Assembly: GCA_050178385.1 (NCBI GenBank)
Contig: JBFXGD010000001.1
Coordinates: 5,802 to 69,801, forward strand
Direction of reading: 5' to 3'
DNA from: Calditrichaceae bacterium
GTDB lineage: Bacteria; Calditrichota; Calditrichia; Calditrichales; JBFXGD01
Length of the DNA stretch: 64,000 bases
Position numbers and translations under genes: made by a program. Of the stretch, positions 18,327 through 41,612 are shown one piece after another (the first letter of the stretch is position 1; the number at the start of each line of letters is the position of its first letter). Below the pieces are notes generated by a model that ran no database searches, was not told the origin of the DNA, and saw only the letters and a list, made by a program, of their open reading frames with translations.

Positions 18327-18379
18327 GTCAAAGTTTGGCAACAACTCTTTCTGTTTACTCCGCAATGAAATTATATCAG

Positions 18380-18418: not shown

Positions 18419-18644
18419 TAATTAAAATATATTGGCATTTTTTAATTCATTCTTACTTCCGTCGCGGTAAATTTCCCTTTTTTCTCCGAATTTTAACAGC
18501 ATATCTAATCAATATAAACTTTTTGCATTCAAATTTTGGTAAGAGACACAAAAAGTCCTAAATTTGATAGTTTATTAAATAAATATAAGGCCAATGGTTT
18601 TAATCAAACCGGAAATTGAATTAGAGCGGATTCTGGAGGAGATA

Positions 18645-20156: not shown

Positions 20157-20187
20157 TTTTCTGTTACTATGATTTCGGAAAAGCTGG

Positions 20188-21468: not shown

Positions 21469-21565
21469 GTTCTCCTGGCTTTCAAAAATATTGTTTATTA
21501 TTAGTTTTTATTGTGTTCAAAGCGAAAATATCTTTAAATAAAAATGATATTTGGAATTATAAAAG

Positions 21566-22897
21566 ATGACCAAATTTACAAAAATTAGTCTTGGTTTTAT
21601 CATTTTCGCACTACCGCTTCAAATAATTTCCATCTATGTCGGATTCAGTATAATCCTTGTTCGTGTTCTTTTTCTGTCCAGTTTCTTTGTCGCTGTTTTT
21701 CTGATGCTCATAAGAGGGGAGTTGAACATTCCCAAAACTTACATTGATTTAAATATTTTACTTCTTATAATCGCAAATTTTATTATCACATTGTTCGCGA
21801 TAGACGTTCTGCTCAGTCTTAAAGATGCTCTATTGCAGATGTATATAATATTCTTTTTTTACTATATCTACTGGTTGATGAATACAGAAAAATCACTGGA
21901 ATTCGCGGTAAACGCCTATATTTATACTGCAATCATTCTATCTCTGTACGGTGCATTCCAGCAGATTGGTTTTCTATTGGGGTGGGACACAAGAATTCCT
22001 TTCCTGGATTATTTTTCGTACAATGAAGCTCTCAAAGATCCCGCCTCGAAAGATTGGGCTATGGAAGAAATAAGTAGTTTTTTCATTCGTATAAGGGGAA
22101 CATTTTTTGATACAAATACTTTTGCGGGTTATATAGTTAGCGCATTCGGCTTGGCAATCACAAAACTTATCTACTCATATAAGGAAAGAAAAGCTGGAAG
22201 TAAGTTCAAATATTGGTTAATAATTTTCATCTTCTTAATAACGATTCTTTTGACTATGTCGCGTTCAGCCTTGGTGGGTCTCTTCCTATTGTTTATGGTG
22301 ATTCTTTTTTATTATCATAAAGAATTGTTTGGCAGGTTTTTATGGTTGAGGATAATTGTGCCTTTCGTTGTTGTTGCAATATTTGGCATCCTGCTCATAC
22401 CTGATCTTTTAGATCTGATCATTGGGGTTGTTACATCGTTTAGCATGGACAATAAAAACCCTCTTCGGACGAAATCGACAATGCTTCACCTGAAAATAGC
22501 CTTACAGGGAATTGAAATGTTCATTGAGAATCCGATTACCGGTGTCGGCTTAAATAATTTTCGTATAAGCTATGCACACAGTAATCACCTTTGGTACACA
22601 GGATTCACAAATAAAAACATGATGGCTCATAGCGTGTTTTTGTCCTTCTTTTCAGAAGGTGGAATTATAGGTGCAATAGCCAATTATTCAATTATCGGTA
22701 CAATAATATTAAAATCACATAGCCGGATTAAATCGATTTTATCTTCATATAAGAAATCTCAAATGGTAGGCATTTTTGCAGCTTATATTGGTATTCTGGG
22801 ATCGAATATATTTTATCAATATTATTTAAATGAGTTCGTTTGGTTCTTGATTGCGGCAAATGTGGCGGCATTCTATGTATTAAAACCCGATGATTAA
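21566..22897 (+). CDS. O-antigen polymerase/ligase family membrane protein (Wzy-like)
   Basis: 443 aa and very hydrophobic, with at least 10 predicted TM segments. It has the Wzy_C-like block LLTMSRSALVGLFLLF and a large loop before the last TMs. This is the most AT-rich gene in the locus. Confidence 0.6.
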   Translation: MTKFTKISLGFIIFALPLQIISIYVGFSIILVRVLFLSSFFVAVFLMLIRGELNIPKTYIDLNILLLIIANFIITLFAIDVLLSLKDALLQMYIIFFFYYIYWLMNTEKSLEFAVNAYIYTAIILSLYGAFQQIGFLLGWDTRIPFLDYFSYNEALKDPASKDWAMEEISSFFIRIRGTFFDTNTFAGYIVSAFGLAITKLIYSYKERKAGSKFKYWLIIFIFLITILLTMSRSALVGLFLLFMVILFYYHKELFGRFLWLRIIVPFVVVAIFGILLIPDLLDLIIGVVTSFSMDNKNPLRTKSTMLHLKIALQGIEMFIENPITGVGLNNFRISYAHSNHLWYTGFTNKNMMAHSVFLSFFSEGGIIGAIANYSIIGTIILKSHSRIKSILSSYKKSQMVGIFAAYIGILGSNIFYQYYLNEFVWFLIAANVAAFYVLKPDD

Positions 22898-23065
22898 ATT
22901 CATCATAATAATGTATGCTTTAATGTTTTGGAACAGAATAATATTATATCATTCCGATCGTGTGTAAGGCTGATGATGTATAGATTGGCAATAAATGGGA
23001 ATTGAAAATTATGATAATCATTTTTGAGTTACGATCAACAAAAGAAAATATATCAGTTTTCCATA

Positions 23066-24016
23066 ATGAAAAAAAAGATGAGAGATATTAAAGTTAAAAA
23101 GGCTCCAAAAGTCGCCATTGTTATTTTAAATTACATGCGCGCAAATGATACTATCGAATGTATGGAATCGATTCTTAATATTGATTATAAGAACTATGAG
23201 ATTATACTGGTGGATAATCATTCCCGGGATGATTCGGTCGCAAAATTAAAAATGCGTTTTCCGGAATCAGATATTTTTTCAACGGGTGAAAATCTTGGGT
23301 ACACCGGTGGTATAAACTTCGGAGTCAGGAAGGCGCAATCTTTAAAGCCCGAATACATTCTGCTGCTCAATAATGACACCATTGTAGAAAAGACATTCCT
23401 GACAGAACTGGTTCATTCGATGGAGACTTTTCCCGAAGCCGCCGCCATGGGCGGACTGATTCTTGCAGAGCATGACAGACGGACCGTGTGGTATGCGGGT
23501 GGCACGATGATTCCGTGGAGAGGACTAGCGGTTCATAATCACAAAGGGAAAAATATCGAAGATCTTCAATTAAAATCAATCCGGCCGGTCAGCTTTATCA
23601 CAGGATGTATGATCATGTTCAGAGCGGAAAAACTGGATGAAGTTGGCCTTCAGGATGAACGTTTCTTCATGTATCTTGACGATATAGAATACTCAGCAAG
23701 GATGAAAAATAAAGGATTACAGCTTCTTTTCAATCCAAAAGCAATAATTTATCACAAAGTTTTGAACGAGACCGAGAATCCGTTCAAATTGTATTATTCA
23801 GTAAGAAACCGGCTTTTATTGATATCTGTCTCGTGGAAAGGGCTGACACGCTGGAGCGCGGTAATATACTTTCTGACGGTCATATTAGCAAAACTCATAT
23901 GGTGGCGCTTTACAAACAGAAGTTTTTACTCGGCGGGACGTAAAGGGCTGGCCGATTATTTTAATAAAAATTTTTACAAAGGCAACGGCTTCAATTTTCT
24001 GGCATCGGATTTTTAG
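23066..24016 (+). CDS. glycosyltransferase family 2 (COG1216 rhamnosyltransferase-like)
   Basis: VAIVILNYMRANDT, LVDNHSRDDS, LLLNNDTIV and FFMYLDDIEYSARM. ATG 23066 is preferred over the track's TTG 23024. Confidence 0.8.
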   Translation: MKKKMRDIKVKKAPKVAIVILNYMRANDTIECMESILNIDYKNYEIILVDNHSRDDSVAKLKMRFPESDIFSTGENLGYTGGINFGVRKAQSLKPEYILLLNNDTIVEKTFLTELVHSMETFPEAAAMGGLILAEHDRRTVWYAGGTMIPWRGLAVHNHKGKNIEDLQLKSIRPVSFITGCMIMFRAEKLDEVGLQDERFFMYLDDIEYSARMKNKGLQLLFNPKAIIYHKVLNETENPFKLYYSVRNRLLLISVSWKGLTRWSAVIYFLTVILAKLIWWRFTNRSFYSAGRKGLADYFNKNFYKGNGFNFLASDF

Positions 24017-24019
24017 AAT

Positions 24020-24952
24020 ATGACAAAGATGAAACTCACAGATAAAGAAATCGGATCTGTCGCGGCAATTATCCTTAACTATAACGGGTATGAGGATACG
24101 GAAGCCTGCATAAATTCAATCCAGAAGATTTACGGTGATCGGCTGGCAATATATTTGATTGATAACGCGTCAACGGATGGGAGCGGTTTAAAGCTCAAAA
24201 AGAAATTTAGCGCAGTCTCATTTTATGAGCTCGAAGAGAATCGCGGCTATGCCGCCGGGAATAATCTTGGTATTCAAAAAGCGCTATCTGACGGATTTAA
24301 AAATTTTCTTGTACTAAATAATGATATTATTCTTACAGAGGATGTACTGACTCCGTTTCTCGATGAATTTCACTCCGATCCGCAGACAGGAATTGTCACT
24401 TGTAAGGTGTTTTTTACCGGGCCCGAAAAAATAATATACTCAGCCGGCGGCCGCTTTAATAGGTGGATATGCACCGGGGAGAATTTAAAAATTGGTAAAG
24501 CGGATGACGGAATATCTGAAAGGAAAATCATTGATTTTTTTCCGGGAGCTATTTTTCTCATTAAAAAGGAAGTTGTGGATAATGTCGGATTTATGAAAGA
24601 ACACTTTTTCATGTATTATGAAGATCTGGAATATTCTTTTCGTGTGAACCAAATGTACAAAATGGTTTATTTTTCAGATGTAAGTGTTCTCCATGGTTGC
24701 GGCGGTGGAAAAAAAGGCATGGCTTACTCTGCTCTTTATCTATATTATCACACACGTAACCGATTATGGTTATTCAGAGAACGGTCTTTTTTCTATTTCA
24801 TTTATGTTGTATTATTTACGTTTGCGAATTGCATCTGGAAAACCACGGTTGTTTTCAGGGCAGAAAGCGCTAAAAAAGACCGGATGCATAAATTAAAAAA
24901 ACTCTGGAGCGGTTATTTCCATGGGTTATTTGCTCCAACGGTAAAAAAATGA
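24020..24952 (+). CDS. glycosyltransferase family 2 (COG1216-like), paralog of the previous gene
   Basis: AAIILNYNGYEDT, LIDNASTDGS, LVLNNDIIL and FFMYYEDLEYSFRV. Confidence 0.8.
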   Translation: MTKMKLTDKEIGSVAAIILNYNGYEDTEACINSIQKIYGDRLAIYLIDNASTDGSGLKLKKKFSAVSFYELEENRGYAAGNNLGIQKALSDGFKNFLVLNNDIILTEDVLTPFLDEFHSDPQTGIVTCKVFFTGPEKIIYSAGGRFNRWICTGENLKIGKADDGISERKIIDFFPGAIFLIKKEVVDNVGFMKEHFFMYYEDLEYSFRVNQMYKMVYFSDVSVLHGCGGGKKGMAYSALYLYYHTRNRLWLFRERSFFYFIYVVLFTFANCIWKTTVVFRAESAKKDRMHKLKKLWSGYFHGLFAPTVKK

Positions 24953-26169
24953 AAAACGATCAAATAAAAAAACAGCCAGGAATTCGGAAACACCATACAC
25001 CAATGAAAATATTGTTTTTAACATCACGTCTGCCATTTCCTCCAATCGGGGGCGATAAATTGCGGACTTTTAATTTCCTAAGGTATCTAAAGCAAAAATA
25101 TGAAGTAACTCTTATTTCCTTTATAGAAAATGAGACGGAATTGCAAAATATTTCTGAATATCGTAAATACTACGATAAGCTGATCAGTGTCACATTACCA
25201 AAAGTAAATTCGTATAAAAATTCATTTATCGGGTTATTTTCATCAAAACCTCTGCAGGTGCATTATTACAATTCGGATAAAATGCGGAAAGTAATGGAAA
25301 ATGAGCTTAAAAATGGCTATGATGCCGTTTTTTGTCATCTGATCCGTATGGCTCAGTATCTCCCGGAAAGCAAAAACATCAGGAAAGTGGTGGATTTTAC
25401 AGATGCCATTTCATTGAATTATGAGCGGAGTAAACAATTCCGGAAAGGATTGTTCTCCATTATTAATTATGTGGAAGCAAAGCGCGTTTACCATTACGAA
25501 CAATCAGTGATAAAAAAATCGTACAGATCAATATTTATATCAGACATAGATGCGGATTTCCTCAGAAATGATCAAAATACAGACAAGATAAATATTGTAG
25601 CAAACGGGGTTGATCTGGATATGTTTCAGTTCTACGCAGGCGCTTACAAGCCTAATCAGATTTGTTTTGTCGGTAATATGAGAACATTTCCCAATACGGA
25701 CGCGGTAAACTATTTTGTAAAAGAAGTGTTTCCAATACTAAAAAGGGTAAATAAAGAGCTGAAATTTTATATCGTCGGCAATGAGCCTCCGGCTGAAATA
25801 AGGAATTTGCATAATGCTAAAGATATTATTGTCACAGGATTTGTGGAATCAGTAATTCCCCATATCACCAATTCCGCGGTTTTAGTCGCGCCGATGAGAG
25901 TAGGCGCGGGAATACAGAACAAGATATTGGAAGCAATGGCCCTGGGCACGCCGGTGGTGACAACCACAATCGGGGCGGAAGGGCTGAATAATGATATGGC
26001 GCTTATCGGGGACACTCCCGAAGAGCTGTCGGATAAGATATTATCCATCTTAAATGACAGAGAGTTACGGAGGGATAAAGCCCGGGCAGCAAGGGAATAT
26101 ATTGAGAAAAATTTCAGATGGGAAAAAGTATTTAAAGATCTTGAAGAAAATTTTGTTTATTCTGATTGA
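24949..26169 (+). CDS. glycosyltransferase family 4 (GT-B, Glycos_transf_1)
   Basis: MKILFLTSRLPFPPIGGDKLR N-terminal block and the C-terminal GT-B EX7E region (APMRVGAGIQNKILEAMALGTPVV). An ATGA overlap links it to the upstream GT2. ATG 25003 is an alternative start. Confidence 0.8.
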   Translation: MKNDQIKKQPGIRKHHTPMKILFLTSRLPFPPIGGDKLRTFNFLRYLKQKYEVTLISFIENETELQNISEYRKYYDKLISVTLPKVNSYKNSFIGLFSSKPLQVHYYNSDKMRKVMENELKNGYDAVFCHLIRMAQYLPESKNIRKVVDFTDAISLNYERSKQFRKGLFSIINYVEAKRVYHYEQSVIKKSYRSIFISDIDADFLRNDQNTDKINIVANGVDLDMFQFYAGAYKPNQICFVGNMRTFPNTDAVNYFVKEVFPILKRVNKELKFYIVGNEPPAEIRNLHNAKDIIVTGFVESVIPHITNSAVLVAPMRVGAGIQNKILEAMALGTPVVTTTIGAEGLNNDMALIGDTPEELSDKILSILNDRELRRDKARAAREYIEKNFRWEKVFKDLEENFVYSD

Positions 26170-26215
26170 AACCGAAATTAAAAATAGTAAACATTAATGG
26201 AATAATTGCTGGAGA

Positions 26216-27910
26216 ATGGATTTGAAAAAACTATTTATTGTGCTGGTTCTGCTGATAAATCTCTCGGTTTATGCCGGTAATCCGGTAAGCGTGCCCATTA
26301 ATCATCCAATTTATGATTTTTTTGATCGTATGGAAACGATGGGGTATCTAAATCGCCTTTTGGACGGAATTCGGCCATACAGCCGTGGCCGGGCGGCGGA
26401 TATACTGCTGCAGCTTAATGAGAAACGCGACGAATTAACTTCAATCGATAGACGAAGACTGGATGATTATTTACTGGATTTCAGATTTGAAATAGATCGT
26501 TCTCAAAAATATTCGGAAGCGCCTGATGGCAAAAACTGGTATTCGGTGTTTTCCGGATGGGGAACTTTCAAGAAAGACTTTAACCGGTTCTTTAAACAGA
26601 ATCACCCCGAGGAAGAAAATCACGTATTTCTGTGGGAATCGGGAGGAAGTAACTTCTATTTTGATTATCAGCAAAATTTTACATATGAACAGAGATCGGA
26701 TGATGTGACGAGGGATGCCAATTGGCAGACCTACCAGGTGCGGGGGTTGATTGATGATAATTTCGGGTATGCCGTGGAGGTTAGTCTTTATGCCTTGCGC
26801 GGTGACGAGTCCTATGTCGGGGAACATCCAATACTCAAAGGCGCGTGGAGCAAGCTTCATGAAAATGAAACCAGATATGCGGACAGAACCGGCGGGGAAC
26901 TGGCCTGGCATAACAGGTATTTTGATTTTACCTTTGCTCAGCAGGAAATTGAATGGGGGCCGGGTGAATCAGGTAAATTAACACTTTCCAATAACCCGGA
27001 GCACTATCCCTACGTGAGTATTTCGAAGGATTGGGGATGGGGGAAGTTTATCGCTTTGCACGGGAAATTACAATCGTTTCCCGAGGACACAAGTACTAGC
27101 GGGGAACCGCTGTATCCGGATAAGTGGCTGGCCGCTCATCGTCTTGAGTTTGCTCCCTGGAAAAGTTTGACTATTGGTATCAATGAAAATTTTATTTACG
27201 GCTACCGATACGCGGACTGGTCCTATCTGGTGCCTTTTAACTTTTACAGAGCAACACAGCATAATTTGCGCGACCGCGATAATGCCACAATTTCCATTGA
27301 TTTCGAATGGGTTGCGCGCTCGGGAAGCAAACTCTACGGTACGTTATTTCTGGATGAGTTCAAACGAAGTAAATTATTCACGGACTGGTATGGAAATAAG
27401 CACGCCTTTTTAATCGGTTTGCATCAGACTGATCCGTTCGGGATCGAAAACTTATCTGTGCGGTTGGAATACACGGCCATTATGCCATGGGTATATACGC
27501 ATAAGTATCCCATTAACAGTTACACAACTGATTATCAATCTCTTGGTCACTGGGCCGGTCCTAATTCTGAAGTGTATTATGCCCATGTGTCCAAAGACTG
27601 GCACCAGCGTTTAACAACCGGATTTATATTTCAGCAGTATAAACATGGCGATAATTATGAGAATGAAAATATCGGCGGTGATATTCTGCTGGGGCACAAT
27701 GATTTGTTGGGTGAACAGGAAAGCGCGAGGGAAACCCGGGATTTTCTTGAAGGTAATTTGACCACAGAACAAAAGTATGAAGCATATCTAAAATATGAAG
27801 TTTTTAATGATCTGTTTTTAACATTCGTCTATGATCATTTTGATATAGAAAGCGGCGGAACCAAAACCAAATTAGATGAATTTCATTTTGGGTTTGAATT
27901 ACGATATTAG
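26216..27910 (+). CDS. outer-membrane beta-barrel protein, probably capsule-assembly Wzi family
   Basis: Signal peptide, then an N-terminal helical block (HPIYDFFDRMETMGYLNRLL..IRPYSRGRAADILL) as I remember for Wzi-family proteins. Aromatic-rich alternating beta-strand pattern, and a C-terminus FGFELRY ending in an aromatic residue. At 564 aa it is longer than classical Wzi. Confidence 0.5.
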   Translation: MDLKKLFIVLVLLINLSVYAGNPVSVPINHPIYDFFDRMETMGYLNRLLDGIRPYSRGRAADILLQLNEKRDELTSIDRRRLDDYLLDFRFEIDRSQKYSEAPDGKNWYSVFSGWGTFKKDFNRFFKQNHPEEENHVFLWESGGSNFYFDYQQNFTYEQRSDDVTRDANWQTYQVRGLIDDNFGYAVEVSLYALRGDESYVGEHPILKGAWSKLHENETRYADRTGGELAWHNRYFDFTFAQQEIEWGPGESGKLTLSNNPEHYPYVSISKDWGWGKFIALHGKLQSFPEDTSTSGEPLYPDKWLAAHRLEFAPWKSLTIGINENFIYGYRYADWSYLVPFNFYRATQHNLRDRDNATISIDFEWVARSGSKLYGTLFLDEFKRSKLFTDWYGNKHAFLIGLHQTDPFGIENLSVRLEYTAIMPWVYTHKYPINSYTTDYQSLGHWAGPNSEVYYAHVSKDWHQRLTTGFIFQQYKHGDNYENENIGGDILLGHNDLLGEQESARETRDFLEGNLTTEQKYEAYLKYEVFNDLFLTFVYDHFDIESGGTKTKLDEFHFGFELRY

Positions 27911-27978: not shown

Positions 27979-30411
27979 ATGACATTTATAATGGTTTTCA
28001 TTTTCGGATTGGCAATGGCGTTGCTGGCGACTTATTTAACGCAAAAAATTGCCACAAAGCATTCCATCGGAACTTATCCGGACGGGAGGATGGTGCATCT
28101 GGGATTTATCCCGCATATGGGAGGTATAGGCTTCATTTCCGGATTTGCGGGGGGAATACTTCTGCTGTTTGGATTAAATGAACAATTGTTTTTTGAAATT
28201 ATTTCCGGATATGGGGCCATACTTACCGGCTCACTTCTCATAGTTATTCTGGGTGTTTATGATGATCTAAAGGGATTAAATGCTGTTAAAAAATTTTCAG
28301 GACAGTTTATAGCCGCTTCAATTGTTATTTTTATGGGCTGTAAAATTGATATTCTTGTTTTTCCCATGGGACACTCAATATCCCTGGGGATTATGTCGGT
28401 TCCATTTACTTACCTCTGGTTCATAGGTGTCAGCAATGCGGTCAATCTGCTCGATGGACTGGATGGATTGGCAGCCGGCGCGGGAATCATCGCGTCTTCA
28501 GCCATCGCGTTAATCGCCTGGCAATCAGCGGATTATGTAACATTCGCGGTGATTATTTCATTGATTGCCGGTCTGCTGGGGTTTTTAAAATTCAATCATC
28601 ATCCGGCTTCCATTTTTATGGGTGATACGGGTTCATTATTCTTAGGATTTATTCTCGCCGCAATTTCAATAAGAGGATTTGAGAGTCAGCCGGGAAATAT
28701 TTCGCTGTTGATTCCATCCATCGCGCTGGCAGTACCGATAAGTGATACAAGTCTGGCCTTTTTCAGGCGGCTAAATGGAGGACATCATCCTTTTAAAGCT
28801 GACAAAGATCACCTCCATCACCGACTAATATTTTTAGGTTTGACCCACAGTCAGGCTGTTTATATCATCTACGGCATTTCGGCCTTATCCGCTTTAACGG
28901 CATTTACAGTGGCGACCCAGTCTACCGTTGCGGGTGGTGTAATGTTTATATTAACCTTAACACTGTCAGTCCTGGGTCTTAAACGTCTGGGTTATCTTGA
29001 AGCGCAAAAAAGTAAGACCTATTACGGGGATGAAAAAATTATCCGGGCCAGACACCAGATCGCTCCGCTGTCAATGCGCCGGATACAGCATCGTTTAATG
29101 ATTGGAATATCCGATGTTATTATGATAAACACAGCGCTGGTTGTTACCTGGTGGGTCAGATTTCAATCCGGTATGATTAAAGTCAGCAGACCTGTTCCGT
29201 TGGATGAATTTATCTTTACGCCCGTTACACTGATCATTACTCTGCTCTGGATAACTTTATTTCTTGTCAATAATCTCTATAACATGTACTGGGATGTTTC
29301 CCGGTTTGATAAAGTACAACGCGTTAACAAGACTGTTTTGTTTGGGATTGTCATTCTGTATTTAGTGACCCTGGACCCCAGTAACATGTTTACTGAAGGA
29401 CGGATCGCGATTCTGATTTACGGTTTTTGCGTAATTTTCTTCGTAAATTTCGGCAGGCTGAATATAATTGGTTTTGAAAAAAGATATAAACTGCTCGAAT
29501 ACGCGCCGCATAACACGCTGCTGATCGGCTCATCCGAGAAGGGAAAGAAGATATTAAAGGACATTAGAAAAAATCCGCATTTACTCTATAACATTGTCGG
29601 ATATATTTCTAAAAATCCATCAGAGAAAAAATTTTATGAACTGGATTCACTGGGAGTCTATAAAGACATTCCTGATATCATAAGAAAATTTGAAATAGAA
29701 GAAGTGGTTATCGCAATTAATGAGCGCTCCAGGGATGAGGTTTTGAATATCGTTTCTTTTGCTGAAAATATGAATGTAGTATTCAAAATTGTCCCGGAGA
29801 TATACGACGTGGTATCCGGTCTTAAGACGGAAGAAGTCATAGGCCATCCGCTGATCCGTTTATTCCCGGAACATATGTTTTTATGGCAATGGATATTAAA
29901 AAGAATTTATGATGTGATACTGGCTGCTGCGGTAGCGCTGATATTTAGCCCTGTCGCCTTGCTCATAATTTTCCTTCTGTTTCTATCCGGAAATTATCCG
30001 CCTCTGATCATTCAAAATATGGTTGGCAGAAATGGCCGTCTTTTCGGGAAGCTCAATTTTAACGTCGGAGAAAAGAACACCTATGTCCAAAAGCTGCTTT
30101 TCAATACACGATTGTACAAAGTTCCCGAAATTATGAATGTTTTGCTTGGTCAGATGAGTTTTGTCGGGCCGCGTCCTGAGATGCCGGAAGAGGTTGACCA
30201 TTTAAGAGGAAAAATTAAGTTTTATAATCGCCGTTTTCAGATCCGGCCGGGAATTACCGGATGGGCACAGGTGAAATTCCGGTATGATGAATCATTGCAT
30301 CATAAAAGAGAGCAATTCAAACAAGATCTGTTTTATCTGGAAAATATGTCACTGACATTTGATTTTAGAATATTATTGCGCTCGACAGTCATATTCTTAA
30401 CGAACCGATGA
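27979..30411 (+). CDS. fusion: WecA/MraY-type polyprenyl-phosphate GlcNAc-1-P transferase (N) + WbaP-type 4TM/Rossmann/sugar-transferase module with degenerate catalytic motifs (C)
   Basis: aa 1-340: about 10 TM segments with VYDDLKG, NAVNLLDGLDGLA, MGDTGSLFLGF and DKDHLHHRL. aa 370-810: 4 TM segments, LLIGSSEKGKKILKDI..VVIAINE, KRIYDVILAAAVALIFSPV, SFVGPRPE and RPGITGWAQV. However, KFRTM reads KLNFNV and the DE-dyad segment reads LYKVPE. Confidence 0.75.
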   Translation: MTFIMVFIFGLAMALLATYLTQKIATKHSIGTYPDGRMVHLGFIPHMGGIGFISGFAGGILLLFGLNEQLFFEIISGYGAILTGSLLIVILGVYDDLKGLNAVKKFSGQFIAASIVIFMGCKIDILVFPMGHSISLGIMSVPFTYLWFIGVSNAVNLLDGLDGLAAGAGIIASSAIALIAWQSADYVTFAVIISLIAGLLGFLKFNHHPASIFMGDTGSLFLGFILAAISIRGFESQPGNISLLIPSIALAVPISDTSLAFFRRLNGGHHPFKADKDHLHHRLIFLGLTHSQAVYIIYGISALSALTAFTVATQSTVAGGVMFILTLTLSVLGLKRLGYLEAQKSKTYYGDEKIIRARHQIAPLSMRRIQHRLMIGISDVIMINTALVVTWWVRFQSGMIKVSRPVPLDEFIFTPVTLIITLLWITLFLVNNLYNMYWDVSRFDKVQRVNKTVLFGIVILYLVTLDPSNMFTEGRIAILIYGFCVIFFVNFGRLNIIGFEKRYKLLEYAPHNTLLIGSSEKGKKILKDIRKNPHLLYNIVGYISKNPSEKKFYELDSLGVYKDIPDIIRKFEIEEVVIAINERSRDEVLNIVSFAENMNVVFKIVPEIYDVVSGLKTEEVIGHPLIRLFPEHMFLWQWILKRIYDVILAAAVALIFSPVALLIIFLLFLSGNYPPLIIQNMVGRNGRLFGKLNFNVGEKNTYVQKLLFNTRLYKVPEIMNVLLGQMSFVGPRPEMPEEVDHLRGKIKFYNRRFQIRPGITGWAQVKFRYDESLHHKREQFKQDLFYLENMSLTFDFRILLRSTVIFLTNR

Positions 30412-30417
30412 GATATC

Positions 30418-32505
30418 ATGTCAAGTCAGAAAACAGTAATCAGTATAATTATCGTTAACTACAATGTGCGGGATTTTCTTGAGCAGGCGTTGATTTCAGT
30501 AAAACGGGCGCTTGAGAACATTACATCAGAGATTATTGTTGTCGATAATGCATCCATCGACGGATCTGTACAGATGCTCCAGAATCGATTCCCTGATGTA
30601 AAAATTATCGAAAACGATAAAAATTTGGGCTTTTCCGCCGCTAACAATCTCGCGTTGAAAGATGCCCATGGGGAATACATTGTATTATTGAATCCGGATA
30701 CGTTGGTTCAGGAAGACACCTTTAAAAAGCTGATTCAATTTTTTGAACAAAATCCTGATGCTTCGGCCGCCACTTGTAAAATTTTGAATCCTGACGGGAC
30801 TTTCTCTATAGACTGCCGCCATAGTATTCCCACACCAATGACGGCATTCTGGAAACTGATAGGATTTAATCGTCTTTTTCCAAAAAGTAAAATATTCGGC
30901 CGTTATAACCTGACCTGGCTTGATGAAAATCAAATCTACCAGGTTGAGGCAATATCAGGTTCATTCATGATGATAAAGAGCGGGGTTGTTCAGAAAGTCG
31001 GGTTGCTGGATGACCGGTTTTTTATGTATTGCGAAGACATTGATTACTGTCACCGGATAAATCAGTCCGGCGGAAAAATCTATTATGTTCCGACATCTCA
31101 GCTAATCCACTATAAAGGAGAAAGTACAAAGAAAAACAATCTGGATTATGTCGTCACGTTTAACAAATCGCTCTATTTGTTTTACAAAAAACACTATCAG
31201 CAAAAATATATCTATCCCTTTAAATGGTTAATTCTTCTTGGAGTCATCTTGAGGGGGATGATGATCTTTATCAGAAATTTTGCCGCCGCTTTTTATCCAT
31301 TTATGCTGGATTTGCTGATAATGAACGGAACGTTGTTTTTAAGTTTCTATCTCCGTTATGAAATTAGAGGAGATTTTACTCTCCATGATTTTTTCAGTGA
31401 CTATATTATTATTAACTTAATAACATCGGCCGCCTACTTCATCTCATCCCTGTTTTTCGACAGTATGGACAGAGACAGATATTCTTTGATTAAAGTGTTT
31501 AAGGCCAACCTGCTCACCTATACGTTTGTCTCAGCATTGACATTTTTTTTCAAACAGTTTGCCTTCTCGAGGCTTGTAGTGCTTTTTACGGCATTTATCA
31601 GCACATCGTTGATGCTTATCTGGAGGATCGGTCTTAGATATTACGGCAGAAAGTATTCGGAAGTTCTCAGAAAAGATTTGTTCGCAAAACGGGCGCTGAT
31701 AGTAGGATTGGATGATGATACGCAAAACCTGCTTATAAAATTAAATAAACGCGTCGATTCTTCAATTGAAATTGTCGGATTGATTTCTCCTGACCGGAAA
31801 GATATCGGCAAAAAAATCGCGGGGTTTCCAATCGTCAGCTCCATACAACAACTACCTGAATTTTTAAGACTTAACAAGATTAACCTGGTCATTTTCTCCA
31901 CACATAATATTTCATATAAATCCATTTTAACCGCCATGGCAAATGTTGAAAACTCTCATATCGAGTTTAAAATGGTACCCGGACATCTGGAATTTATGGT
32001 AGGTAAATCAAATATTGAGCGGCTTGACAATATGCCGCTGGTGGATATAGAATACGCGTATGGTAAACTTTTCAACCGCTTTGTAAAAAGATCTGCCGAT
32101 ATTTTTACATCGTTTATAATCCTGATCTTTCTTCTGCCTGTCGCTTTGCTTTTCCTGCCGTTTAAAATTGGAAAAATAGGCAGAAAACAGGTCCATCAAG
32201 GTAAGAATAATATCAAAACCATTTTGTGGGACCCCCATAAAGGATTTTTCCGCTTTATTTTAAATCTGATAAATATATTATCCGGAAAAATATCACTGGT
32301 GGGCGCGCCGATGGAGAAGGATGGGAAACGGGAGCAGCAGTTTGATTATAAACCCGGGCTGACGGGGATCATTCAAATCAATAAAAACAAGATTACGGAT
32401 GATCAGATATTTGAGAATTTTGAACTGCATTATCTCAAAAATCAGAATTTTTTGCTCGATGTCGAAATTATATACAGGGCGCTATTTTTAAGAAAAGAAA
32501 GATGA
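30418..32505 (+). CDS. fusion: GT2 glycosyltransferase (N) + WbaP-like 4-5TM/Rossmann/vestigial sugar-transferase module (C)
   Basis: aa 1-250: ISIIIVNYN, VVDNASIDGS, LLNPDTLV and FFMYCEDIDYCHR. aa 260-695: TM segments, ALIVGLDDDTQNLLIKL..IVGLISPD, FKMVPGHLEFMVG and KRSADIFTSFIILIFLLPVALL. The tail is shortened, with LVGAPME in place of LVGPRPE, followed by KPGLTGIIQI. Confidence 0.7.
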   Translation: MSSQKTVISIIIVNYNVRDFLEQALISVKRALENITSEIIVVDNASIDGSVQMLQNRFPDVKIIENDKNLGFSAANNLALKDAHGEYIVLLNPDTLVQEDTFKKLIQFFEQNPDASAATCKILNPDGTFSIDCRHSIPTPMTAFWKLIGFNRLFPKSKIFGRYNLTWLDENQIYQVEAISGSFMMIKSGVVQKVGLLDDRFFMYCEDIDYCHRINQSGGKIYYVPTSQLIHYKGESTKKNNLDYVVTFNKSLYLFYKKHYQQKYIYPFKWLILLGVILRGMMIFIRNFAAAFYPFMLDLLIMNGTLFLSFYLRYEIRGDFTLHDFFSDYIIINLITSAAYFISSLFFDSMDRDRYSLIKVFKANLLTYTFVSALTFFFKQFAFSRLVVLFTAFISTSLMLIWRIGLRYYGRKYSEVLRKDLFAKRALIVGLDDDTQNLLIKLNKRVDSSIEIVGLISPDRKDIGKKIAGFPIVSSIQQLPEFLRLNKINLVIFSTHNISYKSILTAMANVENSHIEFKMVPGHLEFMVGKSNIERLDNMPLVDIEYAYGKLFNRFVKRSADIFTSFIILIFLLPVALLFLPFKIGKIGRKQVHQGKNNIKTILWDPHKGFFRFILNLINILSGKISLVGAPMEKDGKREQQFDYKPGLTGIIQINKNKITDDQIFENFELHYLKNQNFLLDVEIIYRALFLRKER

Positions 32506-32707: not shown

Positions 32708-33988
32708 ATGCTGGATATTAAACTTATTAGGGATGACGCGGAAAAAGTAAAGGCAGGAATACGCGCCAAGGGAGAAATGGGAGATGTCGAACAGCTTCTT
32801 GAAATGGATAAAAGAAGGCGTTCAATTATTTTCCAGGTTGAAGAATTAAAGAAGCAGCGGAATGAAAATTCAAAAGTTGTTTCTCAATATAAACGTGAAG
32901 GCAAAGATGCCGGAGACTTGATCGAGTCCACAAAAAAGATTTCTGAGAATATCAAAAATTTTGATGAAGAACTCGCCGAACTGGAGAATAAAATCTTCCA
33001 TGAGCAGAGCCGAATACCAAATCTGCCTCATGAATCGACTCCTTTTGGCAAAGATGCCTCTGATAATGTCGAAGTTAGAAAATGGGGCAAGATTCAGGAT
33101 TTTGATTTCAAAATTCTAAATCACCTGGAGCTTGCTGAACATCTTGACATCATGGATTTCAAACGCGGCGGCAAGGTAACCGGCAGCGGATTCCCGGTAT
33201 ATAAGGGCGCAGGCGCCCGTTTAGAAAGGGCTTTGATTAATTTCATGCTGGATTTACATATTGAAAAGCACGACTATACGGAAATATTTCCTCCGTTTCT
33301 TGCAAACAGAGACAGCATGTTCGGTACGGGGCAGCTGCCCAAGCTTGAAGATGATATGTATTATATGGAAAAAGATGATTTATTCCTGATCCCCACCGCG
33401 GAAGTTCCGGTCACAAATTTACATAGAAATGAAGTTCTTTCCGGTGAAGATCTTCCCGTTAAATATGCGGCATATTCAGCCTGCTTTAGAAGGGAAGCGG
33501 GGTCATACGGCAAGGATACCCGGGGATTTTTAAGAGTACATCAGTTTAATAAGGTTGAAATGGTCAATTTTGTAAAACCGGAAGATTCTTACAATTTCCA
33601 TGAGCAGTTGTTGAATGAAGCAACCGAAATTCTTGAGTTATTGGAAATTCCATACCGTGTGATGCTTCTGTGTACAGGCGATCTTAGTTTCTCCGCGGCA
33701 AAATGTTATGATATTGAAACCTGGTCACCTGCTGAAGATAAATGGCTTGAAGCGTCGAGTGTAAGTAATTTTGAAGATTTCCAGGCGCGTCGCGCACAGA
33801 TACGTTTCAAACGTGATGGGGGGGCTAAACCCGAATATGTTCACACATTAAACGGGTCGGGGCTGGCCACATCAAGACTAATGGTATCCTTACTTGAGAA
33901 TTATCAAACTGATGAGAACACGGTCATTGTACCGGAAGTTTTACGCAAATATATGGGCGGCATGGATATAATTAAACGGAAATATTGA
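32708..33988 (+). CDS. serS: seryl-tRNA synthetase
   Basis: MLDIKLIRDD N-terminus, a coiled-coil arm, and class II motifs (FRREAGSYGKDTRGFLRVHQFNKVE, GSGLATSR). Confidence 0.95.
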   Translation: MLDIKLIRDDAEKVKAGIRAKGEMGDVEQLLEMDKRRRSIIFQVEELKKQRNENSKVVSQYKREGKDAGDLIESTKKISENIKNFDEELAELENKIFHEQSRIPNLPHESTPFGKDASDNVEVRKWGKIQDFDFKILNHLELAEHLDIMDFKRGGKVTGSGFPVYKGAGARLERALINFMLDLHIEKHDYTEIFPPFLANRDSMFGTGQLPKLEDDMYYMEKDDLFLIPTAEVPVTNLHRNEVLSGEDLPVKYAAYSACFRREAGSYGKDTRGFLRVHQFNKVEMVNFVKPEDSYNFHEQLLNEATEILELLEIPYRVMLLCTGDLSFSAAKCYDIETWSPAEDKWLEASSVSNFEDFQARRAQIRFKRDGGAKPEYVHTLNGSGLATSRLMVSLLENYQTDENTVIVPEVLRKYMGGMDIIKRKY

Positions 33989-33990
33989 TT

Positions 33991-34614
33991 ATGACCGAAA
34001 GACAGGCCAGATTAAAAATTGTGGAAATTGGCCGTTTAATGTATCAATTCAGATATATTGTCGCCGGCGATGGAAATATCAGTATCCGGCTTGGTGATCA
34101 TATTCTGATCACACCCAGGGGGGCCTGTAAAGGTCTTTTGTCAGCGGATGAATTATCGTTGATCAGTTTATCCGGGAAAGTTATTCGTGGACGCGCTGAA
34201 CCATCATCCGAAAAAGAGATGCATCTGACAGTATATAATTCAAGACCGGAGATAAAAGCGGTTGTTCACGGTCATCCTCTCTTTGCTACATCCTTCGCTT
34301 CCGCGGGATTGTCGCTAAAAGATTCAGTCTTGCCCGAAATCATCCTGACACTGGGTAAAATTCCGCTGGCGGAATACGGTACTCCGGGAACATCTGAAGT
34401 CGGGAATTCGATTTCTGATTTGATCCGTGAATCTGATGCCATTTTACTTGAGAATCATGGAGTATTGGCTATAGGACGTGACATTGAAACCGCATACTTC
34501 AATCTGGAAAGGGTTGAACACTATGCCCAGATCGCGTTCCAGGCAAAGATGCTGGGCGGTTATACCGTCCTTCCGGATGAAAAAGTCAGGAAGTTGCGGG
34601 AAACTGTGTCCTGA
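33991..34614 (+). CDS. class II aldolase/adducin family protein
   Basis: GDGNISIRL, ITPRGACKG, PSSEKEMHL, VVHGHP and LENHGVLAIG match the FucA/MtnB-type fold. The substrate cannot be called. The start is ATG 33991 or TTG 33985. Confidence 0.75.
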   Translation: MTERQARLKIVEIGRLMYQFRYIVAGDGNISIRLGDHILITPRGACKGLLSADELSLISLSGKVIRGRAEPSSEKEMHLTVYNSRPEIKAVVHGHPLFATSFASAGLSLKDSVLPEIILTLGKIPLAEYGTPGTSEVGNSISDLIRESDAILLENHGVLAIGRDIETAYFNLERVEHYAQIAFQAKMLGGYTVLPDEKVRKLRETVS

Positions 34615-34646
34615 AATCGGAAAATAATAAAGGTAATTTTAATCCG

Positions 34647-35384
34647 ATGAAAATTATTGAATCGTTTATCCGAACCATTCTGACTTATGTAGTACTTTTT
34701 TTTGCCACCGGGATTGCAGCCACGCTGTCAATTATCGGCGGTACTTTGATAGATCCTTATTGTGAATTTAATAATCGCGTCATCAAGATATGGGCGCGCT
34801 CCATTCTCTGGATTTCCGGGACAAAAATAATCATAGAAGGTCTGGAAAATGTAAAACCCGGACAGTCTTATATATTTGTAGCCAATCATCAGAGCAATTT
34901 TGATGTGCTTGCCGCCGCGGCTGCAATTCCGGAGACGGTTCGTTTTATCGCAAAGAAGGAACTATTCAGAATACCGTTATTTTCTCAGGGTATGAAAGCT
35001 GCCGGAGTGATCAAAATTGACCGGGGCAACAGCGCTTCAGCTAAAAAAAGTATCGATGAAGCGGTAGATATCGTAAGACACGGAGTTTCGGTAATTGTAT
35101 TTCCGGAGGGGACCAGGAGTAAAGACGGAAAAATCCATCCATTTAAAAAAGGAGGATTTATTCTGGCTCTCAACGGTGAAATCCCCATCATGCCGATGGT
35201 GATCTCGGGAAGTAAGTATGTTCTAAAAAAACACTGGTTTATTCTTAAACCGGGAAAAATTAAGACGCGATTTTTAAAAGAGATTCCGACTAAAGATTTA
35301 AGTTATGACAGCAGGAATCAGCTGGTTGAACAAGCCAGAAATCAAATTGTGGAAATGTACGAGCCTGAATTTAATAAGGAATAA
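34647..35384 (+). CDS. plsC: 1-acyl-sn-glycerol-3-phosphate acyltransferase
   Basis: N-terminal TM segment. Acyltransferase motifs ANHQSNFD (HX4D), FIAKKEL, FPEGTRS and IPIMPMVI. Confidence 0.8.
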   Translation: MKIIESFIRTILTYVVLFFATGIAATLSIIGGTLIDPYCEFNNRVIKIWARSILWISGTKIIIEGLENVKPGQSYIFVANHQSNFDVLAAAAAIPETVRFIAKKELFRIPLFSQGMKAAGVIKIDRGNSASAKKSIDEAVDIVRHGVSVIVFPEGTRSKDGKIHPFKKGGFILALNGEIPIMPMVISGSKYVLKKHWFILKPGKIKTRFLKEIPTKDLSYDSRNQLVEQARNQIVEMYEPEFNKE

Positions 35385-36030: not shown

Positions 36031-36067
36031 GTCAGGCGATACAAACTCTGTTTCTGCCTGACTTTTT
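36031..36067 (+). terminator. Rho-independent terminator of upp, embedded in the last codons of the convergent GGDEF gene
   Basis: GTCAGGC (36031-36037) / GCCTGAC (36056-36062) with an inner AAAC/GTTT mini-stem, then TTTTT (36063-36067). The same bases read on the minus strand encode ...AKKSGRNRVCIA-stop. Confidence 0.55.
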
Positions 36068-37675: not shown

Positions 37676-37838
37676 GGATCTCTGATTATTTTGATGGTCT
37701 GGATATGACAGCCGAACAAGAATGCAAACAATTTTACCGGAATTCGGATTTTCAATTCAAGAAAGTAAACTATCCTGGTTAAAAAATCAAGCAGGATCGC
37801 TTGCAGGGGACATTTATTTATTAAATATCCCTTGTTGC

Positions 37839-39755: not shown

Positions 39756-39837
39756 AACTACTCCTTTGTTCTGGGCGTAAATATAGAGAAAACCCGGATT
39801 ATATTCAATAATTGATGGGTGGCGAACAAAGATTCTT

Positions 39838-41610: not shown

Positions 41611-41612
41611 AA

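What the first reader, a model, noticed from the sequence alone, without database searches (positions are those of the whole stretch)
27979..30411. One ORF fuses an intact WecA/MraY-type (polytopic) phosphoglycosyltransferase to a complete WbaP-type (monotopic) PGT module whose catalytic motifs look eroded
SEEN: Residues 1 to about 340 have about 10 TM segments and every WecA/MraY hallmark I know: VYDDLKG, NAVNLLDGLDGLA, MGDTGSLFLGF and DKDHLHHRL. Residues about 370-810 have the full large-WbaP layout. That layout is 4 TM segments, a Rossmann-like block (NTLLIGSSEKGKKILKDI...EEVVIAINE), the re-entrant helix KRIYDVILAAAVALIFSPVALL, then SFVGPRPE and RPGITGWAQV. Three things are wrong with the WbaP part. 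The family KFRTM block reads KLNFNV. Only about 18 residues (GEKNTYVQKLLFNTRLYK) stand where about 45 residues, including the DPR.T motif, normally lie. In my hand alignment anchored on NVL.G.MS.VGPRP, the usual S-L-D-E-L-P-Q reads R-L-Y-K-V-P-E, so the Asp-Glu positions are Tyr-Lys.

KNOWN: Polytopic (MraY/WecA) and monotopic (PglC/WbaP) PGTs are unrelated folds that catalyse the same initiating step, sugar-1-P transfer to undecaprenyl phosphate. The monotopic family depends on an Asp-Glu dyad that forms a covalent phosphosugar intermediate. One pathway needs only one initiating PGT.

INFERENCE: The WecA-like head is the real initiator. The WbaP-like tail is a pseudoenzyme, kept for polyprenyl-lipid binding, oligomerisation or nucleotide sensing. 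I do not know of a characterised protein that combines both PGT superfamilies.
Basis: partly seen in the sequence, partly recalled or inferred. Interest (0 to 1): 0.8.

Follow-up and report, generated by a model that had tools for sequence, protein, structure and literature searches.

The report
WecA enzyme fused to dead WbaP module
This gene joins a working-looking sugar-phosphate transferase of one kind (WecA/MraY type) to a complete copy of the unrelated second kind (WbaP type) that has lost its catalytic residues yet is kept under strong selection, so the second half most likely serves as a membrane scaffold or regulator.

Summary
ORF 27979-30411 (810 aa) has PF00953 (aa 80-232), PF13727 (444-606) and PF02397 (641-806). 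HMMER alignment to PglC and WbaP puts Tyr713-Lys714 in the Asp-Glu dyad columns. The K59 and R88 equivalents are also lost, and 16 residues including the D.R.T loop are missing.

The fusion is not an artefact. More than 115 full-length homologues (48-92% identity, Calditrichota) share it. "Eroded" is the wrong word. Tyr-Lys is present in about 90% of 116 homologues. The tail's dN/dS is 0.08, equal to the WecA head. The predicted fold still matches PglC (TM 0.79).

- The next gene (30418-32505) is a GT2 glycosyltransferase fused to a second, more degenerate WbaP-like module. It follows in all seven Calditrichota loci examined.
- The WecA plus large-PGT fusion is common in related phyla (MAGs labelled Ignavibacteriota or Bacteroidota, and Marinimicrobia). 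There, 93 of 99 relatives keep both motif sets.
- One relative has lost the WecA motifs instead, and others have lost the PGT domain entirely.

Best reading: an active WecA-type initiator carries a non-catalytic large-PGT chassis for dimerisation and possibly UMP sensing, perhaps paired with the GT2 neighbour. I found no paper describing this.

The parts
27979..30411 (+). Whole fusion gene, 810 aa plus a TGA stop. Order: WecA-type head, 4-TM bundle, nucleotide-binding DUF, beta-hairpin, re-entrant helix, PGT-fold tail.
27979..29013 (+). Polytopic PGT (WecA/MraY-type) head, aa 1-345. Motifs DD 95-96, NxxNxxDGxDGL 153-164, MGDTGS 214-219 and DKDHLHH 275-281 are all invariant in 116 homologues.
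29014..29073 (+). Inferred cytoplasmic linker, aa 346-365. The reading frame is continuous, and the linker is moderately conserved (mean pairwise identity 0.48).
29074..29493 (+). Four-helix transmembrane bundle of the large-PGT module, aa 366-505.
29494..29811 (+). Rossmann-like DUF (PF13727, CoA_binding_3), aa 506-611. dN/dS 0.038.
29812..29880 (+). Beta-hairpin segment, aa 612-634 (VSGLKTEEVIGHPLIRLFPEHMF). It is the counterpart of the domain-swapped dimerisation hairpin of WbaP. It is the most conserved segment of the protein (pairwise identity 0.74, dN/dS 0.014). Its pLDDT is low in the monomer model, as reported for WbaP monomer models.
   Evidence: PMC10942596
29881..29988 (+). Re-entrant membrane helix, aa 635-670. 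The D-X12-P motif is intact (D645 and P658; D645 is invariant and P658 nearly so).
29989..30408 (+). PGT-fold core without canonical catalytic residues, aa 671-810. KFRSM reads LNFNV (K59->N693), R88->F708, and about 16 residues of the D.R.T loop are deleted. VGPRPE, RPGITGWAQ and D795 are retained.
30115..30120 (+). Codons for Tyr713-Lys714, which occupy the Asp-Glu catalytic dyad columns.
30418..32505 (+). Adjacent partner gene, 6 nt downstream and in the same frame. It is a GT2 glycosyltransferase (catalytic motifs invariant in 117 homologues), then a 4-TM bundle, PF13727 DUF, hairpin, and a heavily deleted pseudo-PGT domain with no KFRSM, D.R.T, dyad or PRP.

Best explanation
The protein is a WecA/TagO-type polytopic phosphoglycosyl transferase. 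The head most likely transfers a HexNAc-1-phosphate from a UDP-sugar to undecaprenyl phosphate and so starts the polysaccharide made by the surrounding Wza/Wzz/Wzy/Wzi cluster.

Its C-terminal 445 residues are a complete large monotopic PGT module (4-TM bundle, nucleotide-binding DUF, beta-hairpin, re-entrant helix, PGT fold) that can no longer perform the monotopic reaction. The Asp-Glu dyad, two of the three substrate-orienting basic residues and the mobile loop are gone.

The module is kept as a non-catalytic chassis. It anchors and dimerises the enzyme through the hairpin, DUF and TM bundle, as in WbaP. It probably also lets UMP, the common product of both PGT classes, feed back on the enzyme.

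The next gene mounts a GT2 glycosyltransferase on a second dead copy of the same chassis. So the two proteins probably form a hetero-dimeric (or mixed) membrane complex that places a GT2 glycosyltransferase (possibly the second-step enzyme) beside the initiating one.

Shown here: the architecture, the motif states, the conservation, the fold and the gene pairing. Inferred: enzyme activity of the head, inactivity of the tail, dimerisation, UMP sensing and the hetero-complex.
For: Head:
- PF00953 scores 137 bits, and all Mg2+, substrate and His motifs are invariant in 116 homologues.
- The predicted fold matches MraY with TM 0.70-0.81.

Tail chemistry is lost:
- HMMER and MAFFT alignments place Y713-K714 at D93-E94, N693 at K59 and F708 at R88. 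Residue roles are taken from PMC12802240; alignments are.
- PF02397 scores 117 bits, against 218-230 in canonical fused relatives.

Tail is still selected:
- dN/dS is 0.080, against 0.081 for the head.
- Family identity is 0.55, against 0.54 for the head.
- The fold matches PglC with TM 0.79.
- The structural residues D645-X12-P658 and D795 are invariant or nearly so.

Dimerisation:
- The hairpin is the most conserved segment, with identity 0.74 and dN/dS 0.014.
- WbaP dimerises through exactly this element, and its DUF binds UMP and UDP (PMC10942596).

Partner gene:
- The GT2 plus pseudo-large-PGT gene lies directly downstream in the window and in 7 of 7 Calditrichota loci (L001-L004, L084, L085 and the window).
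- It is also directly downstream in the clade represented by P0130 (locus L087), and two genes downstream in an Ignavibacteriota locus (L083).
- 36 contig lengths are shared between the two families' top-120 hit lists.

Portability of the chassis:
- WecA+4TM+DUF proteins without any PGT domain occur in MAGs labelled Fibrobacterales, Anaerolineales, Pyrinomonadaceae, Blastocatellia and Omnitrophota.
- P0133 shows the reciprocal case, with a dead head and an intact tail.

No other PGT of either class lies in the 64-kb window.
Against: - No activity data exist for any member.
- The near-fixation of Tyr-Lys, rather than drift at those columns, could mean the site still does something.
- Loss of the tail's catalytic residues does not track the presence of the partner gene. 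A Zixibacteria locus has a dead tail and no GT2 partner. An Ignavibacteriota locus has an intact tail with a partner. Marinimicrobia-like loci have an intact tail and no partner. So the hetero-dimer cannot be the general reason the tail is kept.
- One Calditrichota relative (L002) has a canonical small PglC-like PGT in the same cluster. The head is therefore not necessarily the only initiator at such loci.
- The head scores below the WecA equivalog cut-off (117 against 326 bits), so its sugar specificity is unknown.
- The hetero-dimer was not modelled.
Confidence: 0.62

Rival explanations
1. The tail is a scaffold and regulator that forms homodimers only. Each of the two neighbouring proteins dimerises with itself through its own large-PGT module, and there is no physical link between the WecA fusion and the GT2 fusion.
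For: - WbaP is a homodimer (PMC10942596).
- Fusions with dead tails exist without any GT2 partner (Zixibacteria locus L088).
- Intact-tail fusions also exist without a partner (L086).
- The two modules share only 22% identity.
Against: - The pair is adjacent in every Calditrichota locus examined, with a 6-nt spacer in the window.
- It is also adjacent or near-adjacent in two other clades.
- Both carry the same hairpin-bearing module although neither needs it for catalysis.
Confidence: 0.25
2. The tail is not dead but has a new function. The conserved Tyr-Lys pair, together with the retained GPRP and PGxTGxxQ motifs, forms a new active or ligand site. Examples would be a different nucleophile, a hydrolase or phosphotransfer activity on Und-PP-sugars, or a site that binds Und-P or Und-PP-GlcNAc and presents it to the head.
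For: - Y713 and K714 are fixed in about 90% of 116 homologues, and both are present in relatives at 38-39% identity.
- R732, P757-G758, G761 and Q764 are retained.
- dN/dS is 0.08.
- The second dyad position is Lys or Arg in most degenerate clades.
Against: - The first dyad position varies among degenerate clades (Y, N, Q, E, H, A), so there is no common nucleophile.
- The K59 and R88 equivalents and the mobile loop that shapes the UDP-sugar pocket are lost.
- The neighbour's module has lost the whole core yet is also conserved. This shows that the chassis alone is worth keeping.
Confidence: 0.1
3. The fusion is an assembly or gene-calling artefact, or the tail is a decaying remnant on its way to loss.
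For: - The architecture is unusual.
- PF02397 and the TIGRFAM models score well below canonical values.
- Some lineages have indeed lost the PGT domain entirely.
Against: - More than 115 independent full-length homologues from NCBI, JGI, ENA and Logan assemblies have the same length and domain order.
- The reading frame is uninterrupted.
- The tail's dN/dS is 0.08 and its family-wide identity equals that of the head.
- The fold is predicted with PglC-like geometry.
Confidence: 0.02

Closest known systems
Salmonella enterica WbaP (prototype large monotopic PGT; PDB 8T53)
   Same: Same order of a 4-TM bundle, PF13727 DUF, beta-hairpin, re-entrant helix with D-X12-P, and PGT fold. Foldseek gives E 8e-15. 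The GPRP and PGxTGxxQ motifs are kept.
   Different: The dyad reads Tyr-Lys instead of Asp-Glu. The K59 and R88 equivalents and the helix-turn-helix or mobile loop are lost. The TIGR03022 score is 130 against a cut-off of 403. A 365-residue polytopic PGT precedes the module.
E. coli WecA / B. subtilis TagO (polytopic HexNAc-1-P transferases) and MraY
   Same: PF00953 scores 137 bits. The DD, NxxNxxDGxDGL, GDxGS and HxHH motifs are present. The fold is MraY-like (TM up to 0.81). The TM count is compatible with a cytoplasmic C-terminus.
   Different: The score is below the WecA equivalog cut-off (117 against 326 bits). A 445-residue C-terminal extension is absent from the characterised enzymes. 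Sugar specificity is unknown.
Bifunctional monoPGTs (BiPGT class: acetyltransferase or glycosyltransferase fused to a monoPGT core; PMC11626204)
   Same: A second pathway enzyme sits in the same polypeptide as a monoPGT domain. P0167 is a canonical GT2 plus large-PGT counterpart of the neighbouring gene.
   Different: Here the fused enzyme is the other PGT superfamily, and the monoPGT core lacks its catalytic residues. The texts I could read list acetyltransferases and glycosyltransferases as partners, not polytopic PGTs.
Dual-intact WecA plus large-PGT fusions of Ignavibacteriota/Bacteroidota-labelled MAGs and Marinimicrobia (for example MBI3194419.1 = P0121; uncharacterised)
   Same: Same domain order and length (810-858 aa), at 40% identity over the full length. 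Several loci share the downstream serS synteny.
   Different: They keep KFRSM, D.R.T, [LIVF]DE[LIV]PQ and GPRP (93 of 99 full-length relatives), and PF02397 scores 218-230 bits. The window's clade has replaced these.
PglF-like dehydratases and WecA+4TM+DUF proteins (the 4-TM plus DUF module attached to other enzymes)
   Same: They show that the 4-TM plus PF13727 module is a portable unit placed next to different catalytic domains (PMC10942596).
   Different: Those proteins lack the PGT-fold domain altogether. The window protein keeps it in non-catalytic form.
Myxococcus EpsZ-EpsW (large PGT activated by a partner that promotes dimerisation; PMC12802240)
   Same: It is a precedent for the dimeric state of the large-PGT module acting as a regulatory switch controlled by another protein.
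   Different: EpsZ is catalytically intact and its partner is a response regulator. Here the module itself is non-catalytic and the proposed partner carries a second copy of the module.

Membership tests
Polytopic PGT superfamily (PF00953; MraY/WecA/GPT) | Profile match above the curated threshold | tested here: met
   PF00953 scores 137.2 bits against a cut-off of 27, over aa 80-232.
Polytopic PGT superfamily (PF00953; MraY/WecA/GPT) | Catalytic and substrate motifs: DD, NxxNxxDGxDGL, GDxGS and the cytosolic-loop HxHH | tested here: met
   D95-D96, N153..L164, G215-D216..S219 and H278-x-H280-H281 are all invariant in 116 homologues.
Polytopic PGT superfamily (PF00953; MraY/WecA/GPT) | MraY-like multi-pass fold | tested here: met
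   Foldseek of the AF2 model against MraY structures gives TM (target-normalised) 0.70-0.81 and rmsd 2.9-4.9 A.
WecA proper (TIGR02380 equivalog, UDP-GlcNAc:Und-P GlcNAc-1-P transferase) | Score above the equivalog cut-off | tested here: not met
   116.9 bits against a cut-off of 326.05. It is WecA-like in motifs, but orthology and sugar specificity are not established.
Polytopic PGT superfamily (PF00953; MraY/WecA/GPT) | Sugar-1-P transfer to polyprenyl phosphate; tunicamycin sensitivity | not testable with these tools
   Requires complementation of a wecA mutant or a UMP-release assay.
Monotopic PGT superfamily (PF02397; PglC/WbaP) | Profile match above the Pfam threshold | tested here: met
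   PF02397 scores 116.7 bits against a cut-off of 27, over aa 641-806. This is about half the 218-230 bits of canonical fused relatives.
Monotopic PGT superfamily (PF02397; PglC/WbaP) | Re-entrant helix with D-X12-P, plus the conserved helix-stabilising Asp (D168 of PglC) | tested here: met
   D645, P658 and D795 are invariant or nearly so. The PglC-like fold gives TM 0.75-0.79.
Monotopic PGT superfamily (PF02397; PglC/WbaP) | Asp-Glu catalytic dyad | tested here: not met
   Y713-K714 sit in the dyad columns in both HMMER and MAFFT alignments. Y is present in 105 of 116 and K in 104 of 116 family members.
Monotopic PGT superfamily (PF02397; PglC/WbaP) | Substrate-orienting basic residues K59, R88 and R111 (PglC numbering, PMC12802240) | tested here: not met
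   K59->N693 (no Lys among the five commonest residues at this column, which cover 98 of 116 sequences), R88->F708, and only R111->R732 is kept.
Large monoPGT (WbaP/WcaJ; TIGR03022/03023/03025) | 4-TM bundle, PF13727 DUF and C-terminal PGT layout | tested here: met
   TIGR03023 aligns over aa 378-807 end to end. PF13727 covers 444-606. The AF2 model has four helices (366-502), a Rossmann-like domain, a hairpin and a re-entrant helix.
Large monoPGT (WbaP/WcaJ; TIGR03022/03023/03025) | Score above the curated family cut-offs | tested here: not met
   225.7 against 295.55 (TIGR03025), 207.1 against 410.75 (TIGR03023) and 129.8 against 403 (TIGR03022).
Large monoPGT (WbaP/WcaJ; TIGR03022/03023/03025) | Dimerisation through the DUF beta-hairpin, and uridine-nucleotide binding by the DUF | not testable with these tools
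   The hairpin is present and is the most conserved segment. No multimer modelling or binding assay was available.
Bifunctional monoPGT (BiPGT) | A second catalytic domain fused to a catalytically competent monoPGT core | tested here: not met
   A second catalytic domain is present, but the monoPGT core lacks the dyad. Relatives such as P0121 would meet the definition on motifs.

The most novel reading that the evidence does not exclude
The large-PGT module (4-TM bundle, nucleotide-sensing DUF, swap hairpin, re-entrant PGT fold) has been re-used in Calditrichota and related phyla as a generic, non-catalytic membrane chassis that carries unrelated enzymes. The two adjacent genes (WecA on one dead chassis, GT2 on another) would assemble through a hairpin-swapped hetero-dimer into a dedicated initiation complex. 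That complex would channel Und-PP-HexNAc from step 1 to step 2 and be throttled by UMP. On this reading the Tyr-Lys pair marks a remodelled lipid- or product-binding site, not a relic.
Probability: 0.3. Interest if true: 0.75.

Novelty: new variant of a known kind. Interest (0 to 1): 0.62.

Why it matters
The two PGT superfamilies are textbook examples of unrelated folds that solve the same reaction. This window belongs to a large, uncharacterised family in which both sit in one polypeptide. Within that family nature has inactivated one half (Calditrichota, Zixibacteria and others), the other half (P0133), or deleted the PGT domain and kept only the 4-TM plus DUF part.

That series separates the non-catalytic roles of the large-PGT accessory domains (dimerisation, nucleotide sensing, membrane positioning) from catalysis. 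What those domains do is an open question in the field. The series also suggests that UMP feedback or dimer control may apply to WecA-type enzymes too.

The conserved pairing with a GT2 enzyme on a second dead module offers a tractable model for how early glycan-assembly enzymes are organised at the membrane.

For annotation, these proteins are currently labelled 'sugar transferase' or 'polyprenyl glycosylphosphotransferase'. That label implies an activity the tail almost certainly lacks.

Tried and rejected
- Artefactual fusion: rejected on more than 115 full-length homologues and an uninterrupted frame.
- Decaying remnant: rejected on dN/dS and family identity.
- Genome-collection scan: the tool chose WecA motifs as search patterns, so most of the 80 loci were plain WecA genes. 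Only L003 and L004 and the WecA+4TM+DUF loci were useful.
- The apparent full-length match in a Bacillota MAG (L032) has only a 357-aa ORF at the WecA match, so the head there is not fused to a tail.
- P0131 looked like a stand-alone Tyr-Lys large PGT. It sits on a 1.9-kb contig, with WecA-tail-like sequence upstream of a stop. I treat it as a fragment.
- Foldseek against afdb50, intended to get UniProt taxonomy for the architecture, was not available.
- O'Toole, Imperiali and Allen 2021 (PNAS), the survey most likely to mention such fusions, is not in the held library. Searches for monoPGT+polyPGT, PF02397+PF00953, phosphoglycosyl+pseudoenzyme and WecA+WbaP+fused gave no description of this architecture.
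- A neighbour-joining tree of the tail module groups the degenerate tails into two clusters. Long-branch attraction is likely, so I do not use it to count independent losses.
- I considered whether loss of tail catalysis correlates with presence of the GT2 partner. It does not.


Full report
**1. What is there**

The ORF 27979-30411 (+) encodes 810 residues without interruption.

- Pfam finds PF00953 at aa 80-232 (137 bits), PF13727 at aa 444-606 and PF02397 at aa 641-806 (117 bits).
- NCBIfam models for large PGTs (TIGR03025, TIGR03023, TIGR03022) align across aa 378-807 but stay below their cut-offs. The WecA equivalog model also scores below its cut-off, at 117 against 326 bits.
- An AlphaFold2 model built on 23 family members has mean pLDDT 74.6.
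- By Foldseek the model matches MraY structures (TM 0.70-0.81), WbaP 8T53 (E 8e-15) and PglC (TM 0.75-0.79, rmsd 2.6-3.2 A).

Topology is an inference from the model and published WecA topology. After the His-motif loop (aa 275-283) come two helices (290-312 and 316-345). A linker follows, then four helices (366-502), then the DUF. This order is consistent with every catalytic or soluble part facing the cytoplasm.

**2. The catalytic residues**

HMMER alignment to solved PglC and WbaP aligns SLDELPQ with RLYKVPE. PMC12802240 names the PglC active-site residues as D93, E94, K59, R88 and R111. It names D11-X12-P24 and D168 as helix-shaping residues. Mapped through, these give:

| PglC residue | Role | Query residue |
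|---|---|---|
| D93 | dyad | Y713 |
| E94 | dyad | K714 |
| K59 | substrate orientation | N693 |
| R88 | substrate orientation | F708 |
| R111 | substrate orientation | R732 (kept) |
| D11-X12-P24 | re-entrant helix | D645 / P658 (kept) |
| D168 | helix stabilisation | D795 (kept) |

An alignment with canonical large PGTs shows LNFNV in place of KFRSM. It also shows 16 residues where relatives have 32 between that block and the dyad. This removes the GP.WA..D.R.T loop. In WbaP that region is the mobile helix-turn-helix next to the active site.

So the chemistry-bearing residues are gone, while the residues that shape and anchor the fold are kept.

**3. It is real and selected**

- A search of 5.8 billion proteins returned more than 115 full-length homologues (about 810 aa, 48-92% identity). 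All have the same three Pfam domains. Wherever a source names them they are Calditrichota or Caldithrix.
- In 116 aligned sequences the WecA motifs are invariant. The dyad columns read Y in 105 and K in 104.
- A Calditrichaceae relative at 39% identity (L004) still has a normal-length loop and FVFRM, yet already has RLYKLPQ. The Tyr-Lys replacement is therefore older than the deletion.
- Against the 92%-identical orthologue (L084), dN/dS is 0.081 for the head, 0.086 for the linker plus 4-TM bundle, 0.038 for the DUF, 0.014 for the hairpin and 0.080 for the tail.
- Family-wide pairwise identity is 0.54 for the head, 0.55 for the PGT core and 0.74 for the hairpin.

'Eroded' is therefore wrong. 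The tail is a conserved non-canonical domain.

**4. The neighbour**

Six nucleotides downstream and in the same frame, 30418-32505 encodes a 695-aa protein.

- It has a GT2 domain, a PF13727 DUF, and only the C-terminal half of PF02397.
- It aligns end to end with the tail of gene 1, at 22% identity over 433 columns.
- Its PGT core lacks KFRSM, the D.R.T loop, the dyad and PRP in every orthologue examined.
- Its GT2 motifs (DN..D, NPDT, YCEDxD) are invariant in 117 sequences.
- The orthologue lies directly downstream of the gene-1 orthologue in L001-L004, L084 and L085 (all Calditrichota) and in L087. In the Ignavibacteriota locus L083 it lies two genes downstream.
- The gene-2 family mirrors the gene-1 family. 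36 contig lengths are shared between the two top-120 lists.

**5. The wider family**

An exhaustive HMMER scan of 1.84 billion cluster representatives, followed by a word-indexed search seeded with P0121 as a follow-up, shows that the WecA plus large-PGT fusion is widespread.

- *Both halves intact.* About 100 clusters (at 90% identity) are labelled Ignavibacteriae, Bacteroidota, Marinimicrobia or Neomarinimicrobiota. Of these, 93 of 99 full-length members keep all four WecA motifs plus [LIVF]DE[LIV]PQ and GP[RK]P. Their PF02397 scores are 218-230 bits.
- *Degenerate tails.* These occur in Calditrichota (YK), in the clade represented by P0130 (NK, QK), and in a Zixibacteria-containing group (EK, ER, HR, AD).
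- *Dead head.* One relative, P0133, is the reverse case. Its monoPGT motifs are intact. Its WecA motifs are destroyed (DD->IN, DGxDGL->DKIKGL, GDTGS->GPSGV), and PF00953 scores only 34 bits.
- *No PGT domain.* Proteins of about 600-690 aa with WecA+4TM+DUF and no PGT domain occur in MAGs labelled Fibrobacterales, Anaerolineales, Pyrinomonadaceae, Blastocatellia and Omnitrophota.
- *Synteny.* Several loci from different phyla share the downstream genes serS, aldolase and acyltransferase. This suggests a vertically inherited gene.

**6. Mechanism**

Published work shows three relevant things:

- WbaP is a tight dimer held by a domain-swapped hairpin from the DUF plus TM-bundle contacts.
- Its DUF binds UMP, UDP and UTP, and UMP inhibits the enzyme (PMC10942596).
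- The dimeric state of a large PGT can be controlled by a partner protein (PMC12802240).

UMP is also the product of polytopic PGTs.

The simplest reading has three parts. The head is the working initiator. The tail is a retained chassis for membrane positioning, dimerisation and possibly UMP feedback. The GT2 neighbour on a second dead chassis joins it in a complex.

The window's cluster fits a Wzy-dependent glycan started on a HexNAc. It contains:

- a WecB-type epimerase;
- Wza, a Wzz-like protein, a nucleotidyltransferase-HAD fusion, a TagF-like enzyme and Wzy;
- two GT2 genes, one GT4 gene and a Wzi-like gene.

No other PGT of either class lies in the 64 kb.

Three caveats apply. Loss of tail catalysis does not correlate with the presence of the partner across phyla. 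One Calditrichota locus (L002) also carries a canonical small PglC-like PGT. Nothing here measures activity or oligomeric state.

**7. Comparison and novelty**

The protein is a structural member of both PGT superfamilies. It is a motif-complete member of the polytopic one only. It fails the defining catalytic test of the monotopic one.

The literature I could read defines bifunctional monoPGTs as fusions to acetyltransferases or glycosyltransferases (PMC11626204). None of my searches found a description of polytopic-monotopic fusions or of pseudo-monoPGTs. The 2021 network survey could not be read, so prior mention cannot be excluded.

I rate it a new variant of known kinds. It is of real interest to specialists because it offers natural separation-of-function variants of the large-PGT accessory domains. 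It is not categorically new.

Noticed in passing
window 30418-32505 (+): A second fusion gene lies 6 nt downstream. It is a GT2 glycosyltransferase, then a 4-TM bundle, PF13727 DUF, and a heavily deleted pseudo-PGT domain. It is conserved next to the target gene in all Calditrichota loci examined.
   Followed up: yes
P0121 and relatives (L083, L086); A large uncharacterised family of WecA plus large-PGT fusions occurs in MAGs labelled Ignavibacteriota, Bacteroidota or Marinimicrobia. Both PGT motif sets look intact in 93 of 99 full-length members. These may be dual-activity initiators.
   Followed up: partly
P0133 / L090 58-2523: This is the reciprocal case. The monotopic PGT motifs are intact but the WecA motifs are destroyed (PF00953 only 34 bits). 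It is a single metagenomic sequence on a 5.5-kb contig, followed by serS.
   Followed up: partly
L040, L041, L047, L072, L082 (genome-contig loci): Proteins of about 600-680 aa with WecA+4TM+PF13727 DUF and no PGT-fold domain occur in Omnitrophota, Fibrobacterales, Anaerolineales, Pyrinomonadaceae and Blastocatellia MAGs. This suggests the 4-TM plus DUF module also serves polytopic PGTs.
   Followed up: partly
window 32708-35384; L002, L084, L086, L088, L090: The fusion gene, or the fusion-gene pair, is followed by serS, often then a class II aldolase and an acyltransferase. This holds in Calditrichota, Marinimicrobia-like and Zixibacteria loci. Such deep synteny is unusual for a polysaccharide gene.
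   Followed up: partly
L002 5675-6238: A Calditrichota relative carries a canonical small PglC-like PGT (YKFRTM, SLDELPE, VGPRP) with PglD/E/F-like genes just upstream of the fusion pair. That locus therefore has two candidate initiators.
   Followed up: partly
window 14645-27910 (+): The cluster upstream of the target contains a WecB-type UDP-GlcNAc 2-epimerase, Wza-like exporter, Wzz/GNVR protein without a kinase domain, a nucleotidyltransferase-HAD phosphatase fusion (18594-20156), a TagF-like glycerophosphotransferase, Wzy_C, two GT2 genes, a PEP-CTERM-type GT4 and a Wzi-like protein. The content hints at a phosphate-containing, teichoic-acid-like capsule. No Wzx was noticed among the genes scanned.
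   Followed up: no
window 36032-44633 (-): A response-regulator-GGDEF gene is followed by three large GAF-SpoIIE (PP2C) phosphatase genes, with two small unscanned ORFs (41613-42453) between the second and third. The same arrangement (a GGDEF regulator, then two GAF-SpoIIE genes as far as the locus extends) appears in L002.
   Followed up: no
window 53728-57729 (-): A 1333-aa gingipain-like C25 peptidase has a propeptide domain and a C-terminal FlgD_ig-like domain. The 592-aa ORF downstream of it on the minus strand (57890-59668) has no Pfam match.
   Followed up: no
window 48964-53514 (+): A 1516-aa hybrid sensor kinase has Reg_prop beta-propeller repeats, a Y_Y_Y domain, PAS, HATPase and receiver domains. 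This is the architecture typical of polysaccharide-sensing hybrid two-component systems in Bacteroidota.
   Followed up: no
alignment (degenerate fusion tails): Across independent-looking degenerate clades the second dyad position is usually Lys or Arg (YK, NK, QK, EK, ER, HR). A basic side chain may fill the former Mg2+/phosphate site.
   Followed up: no
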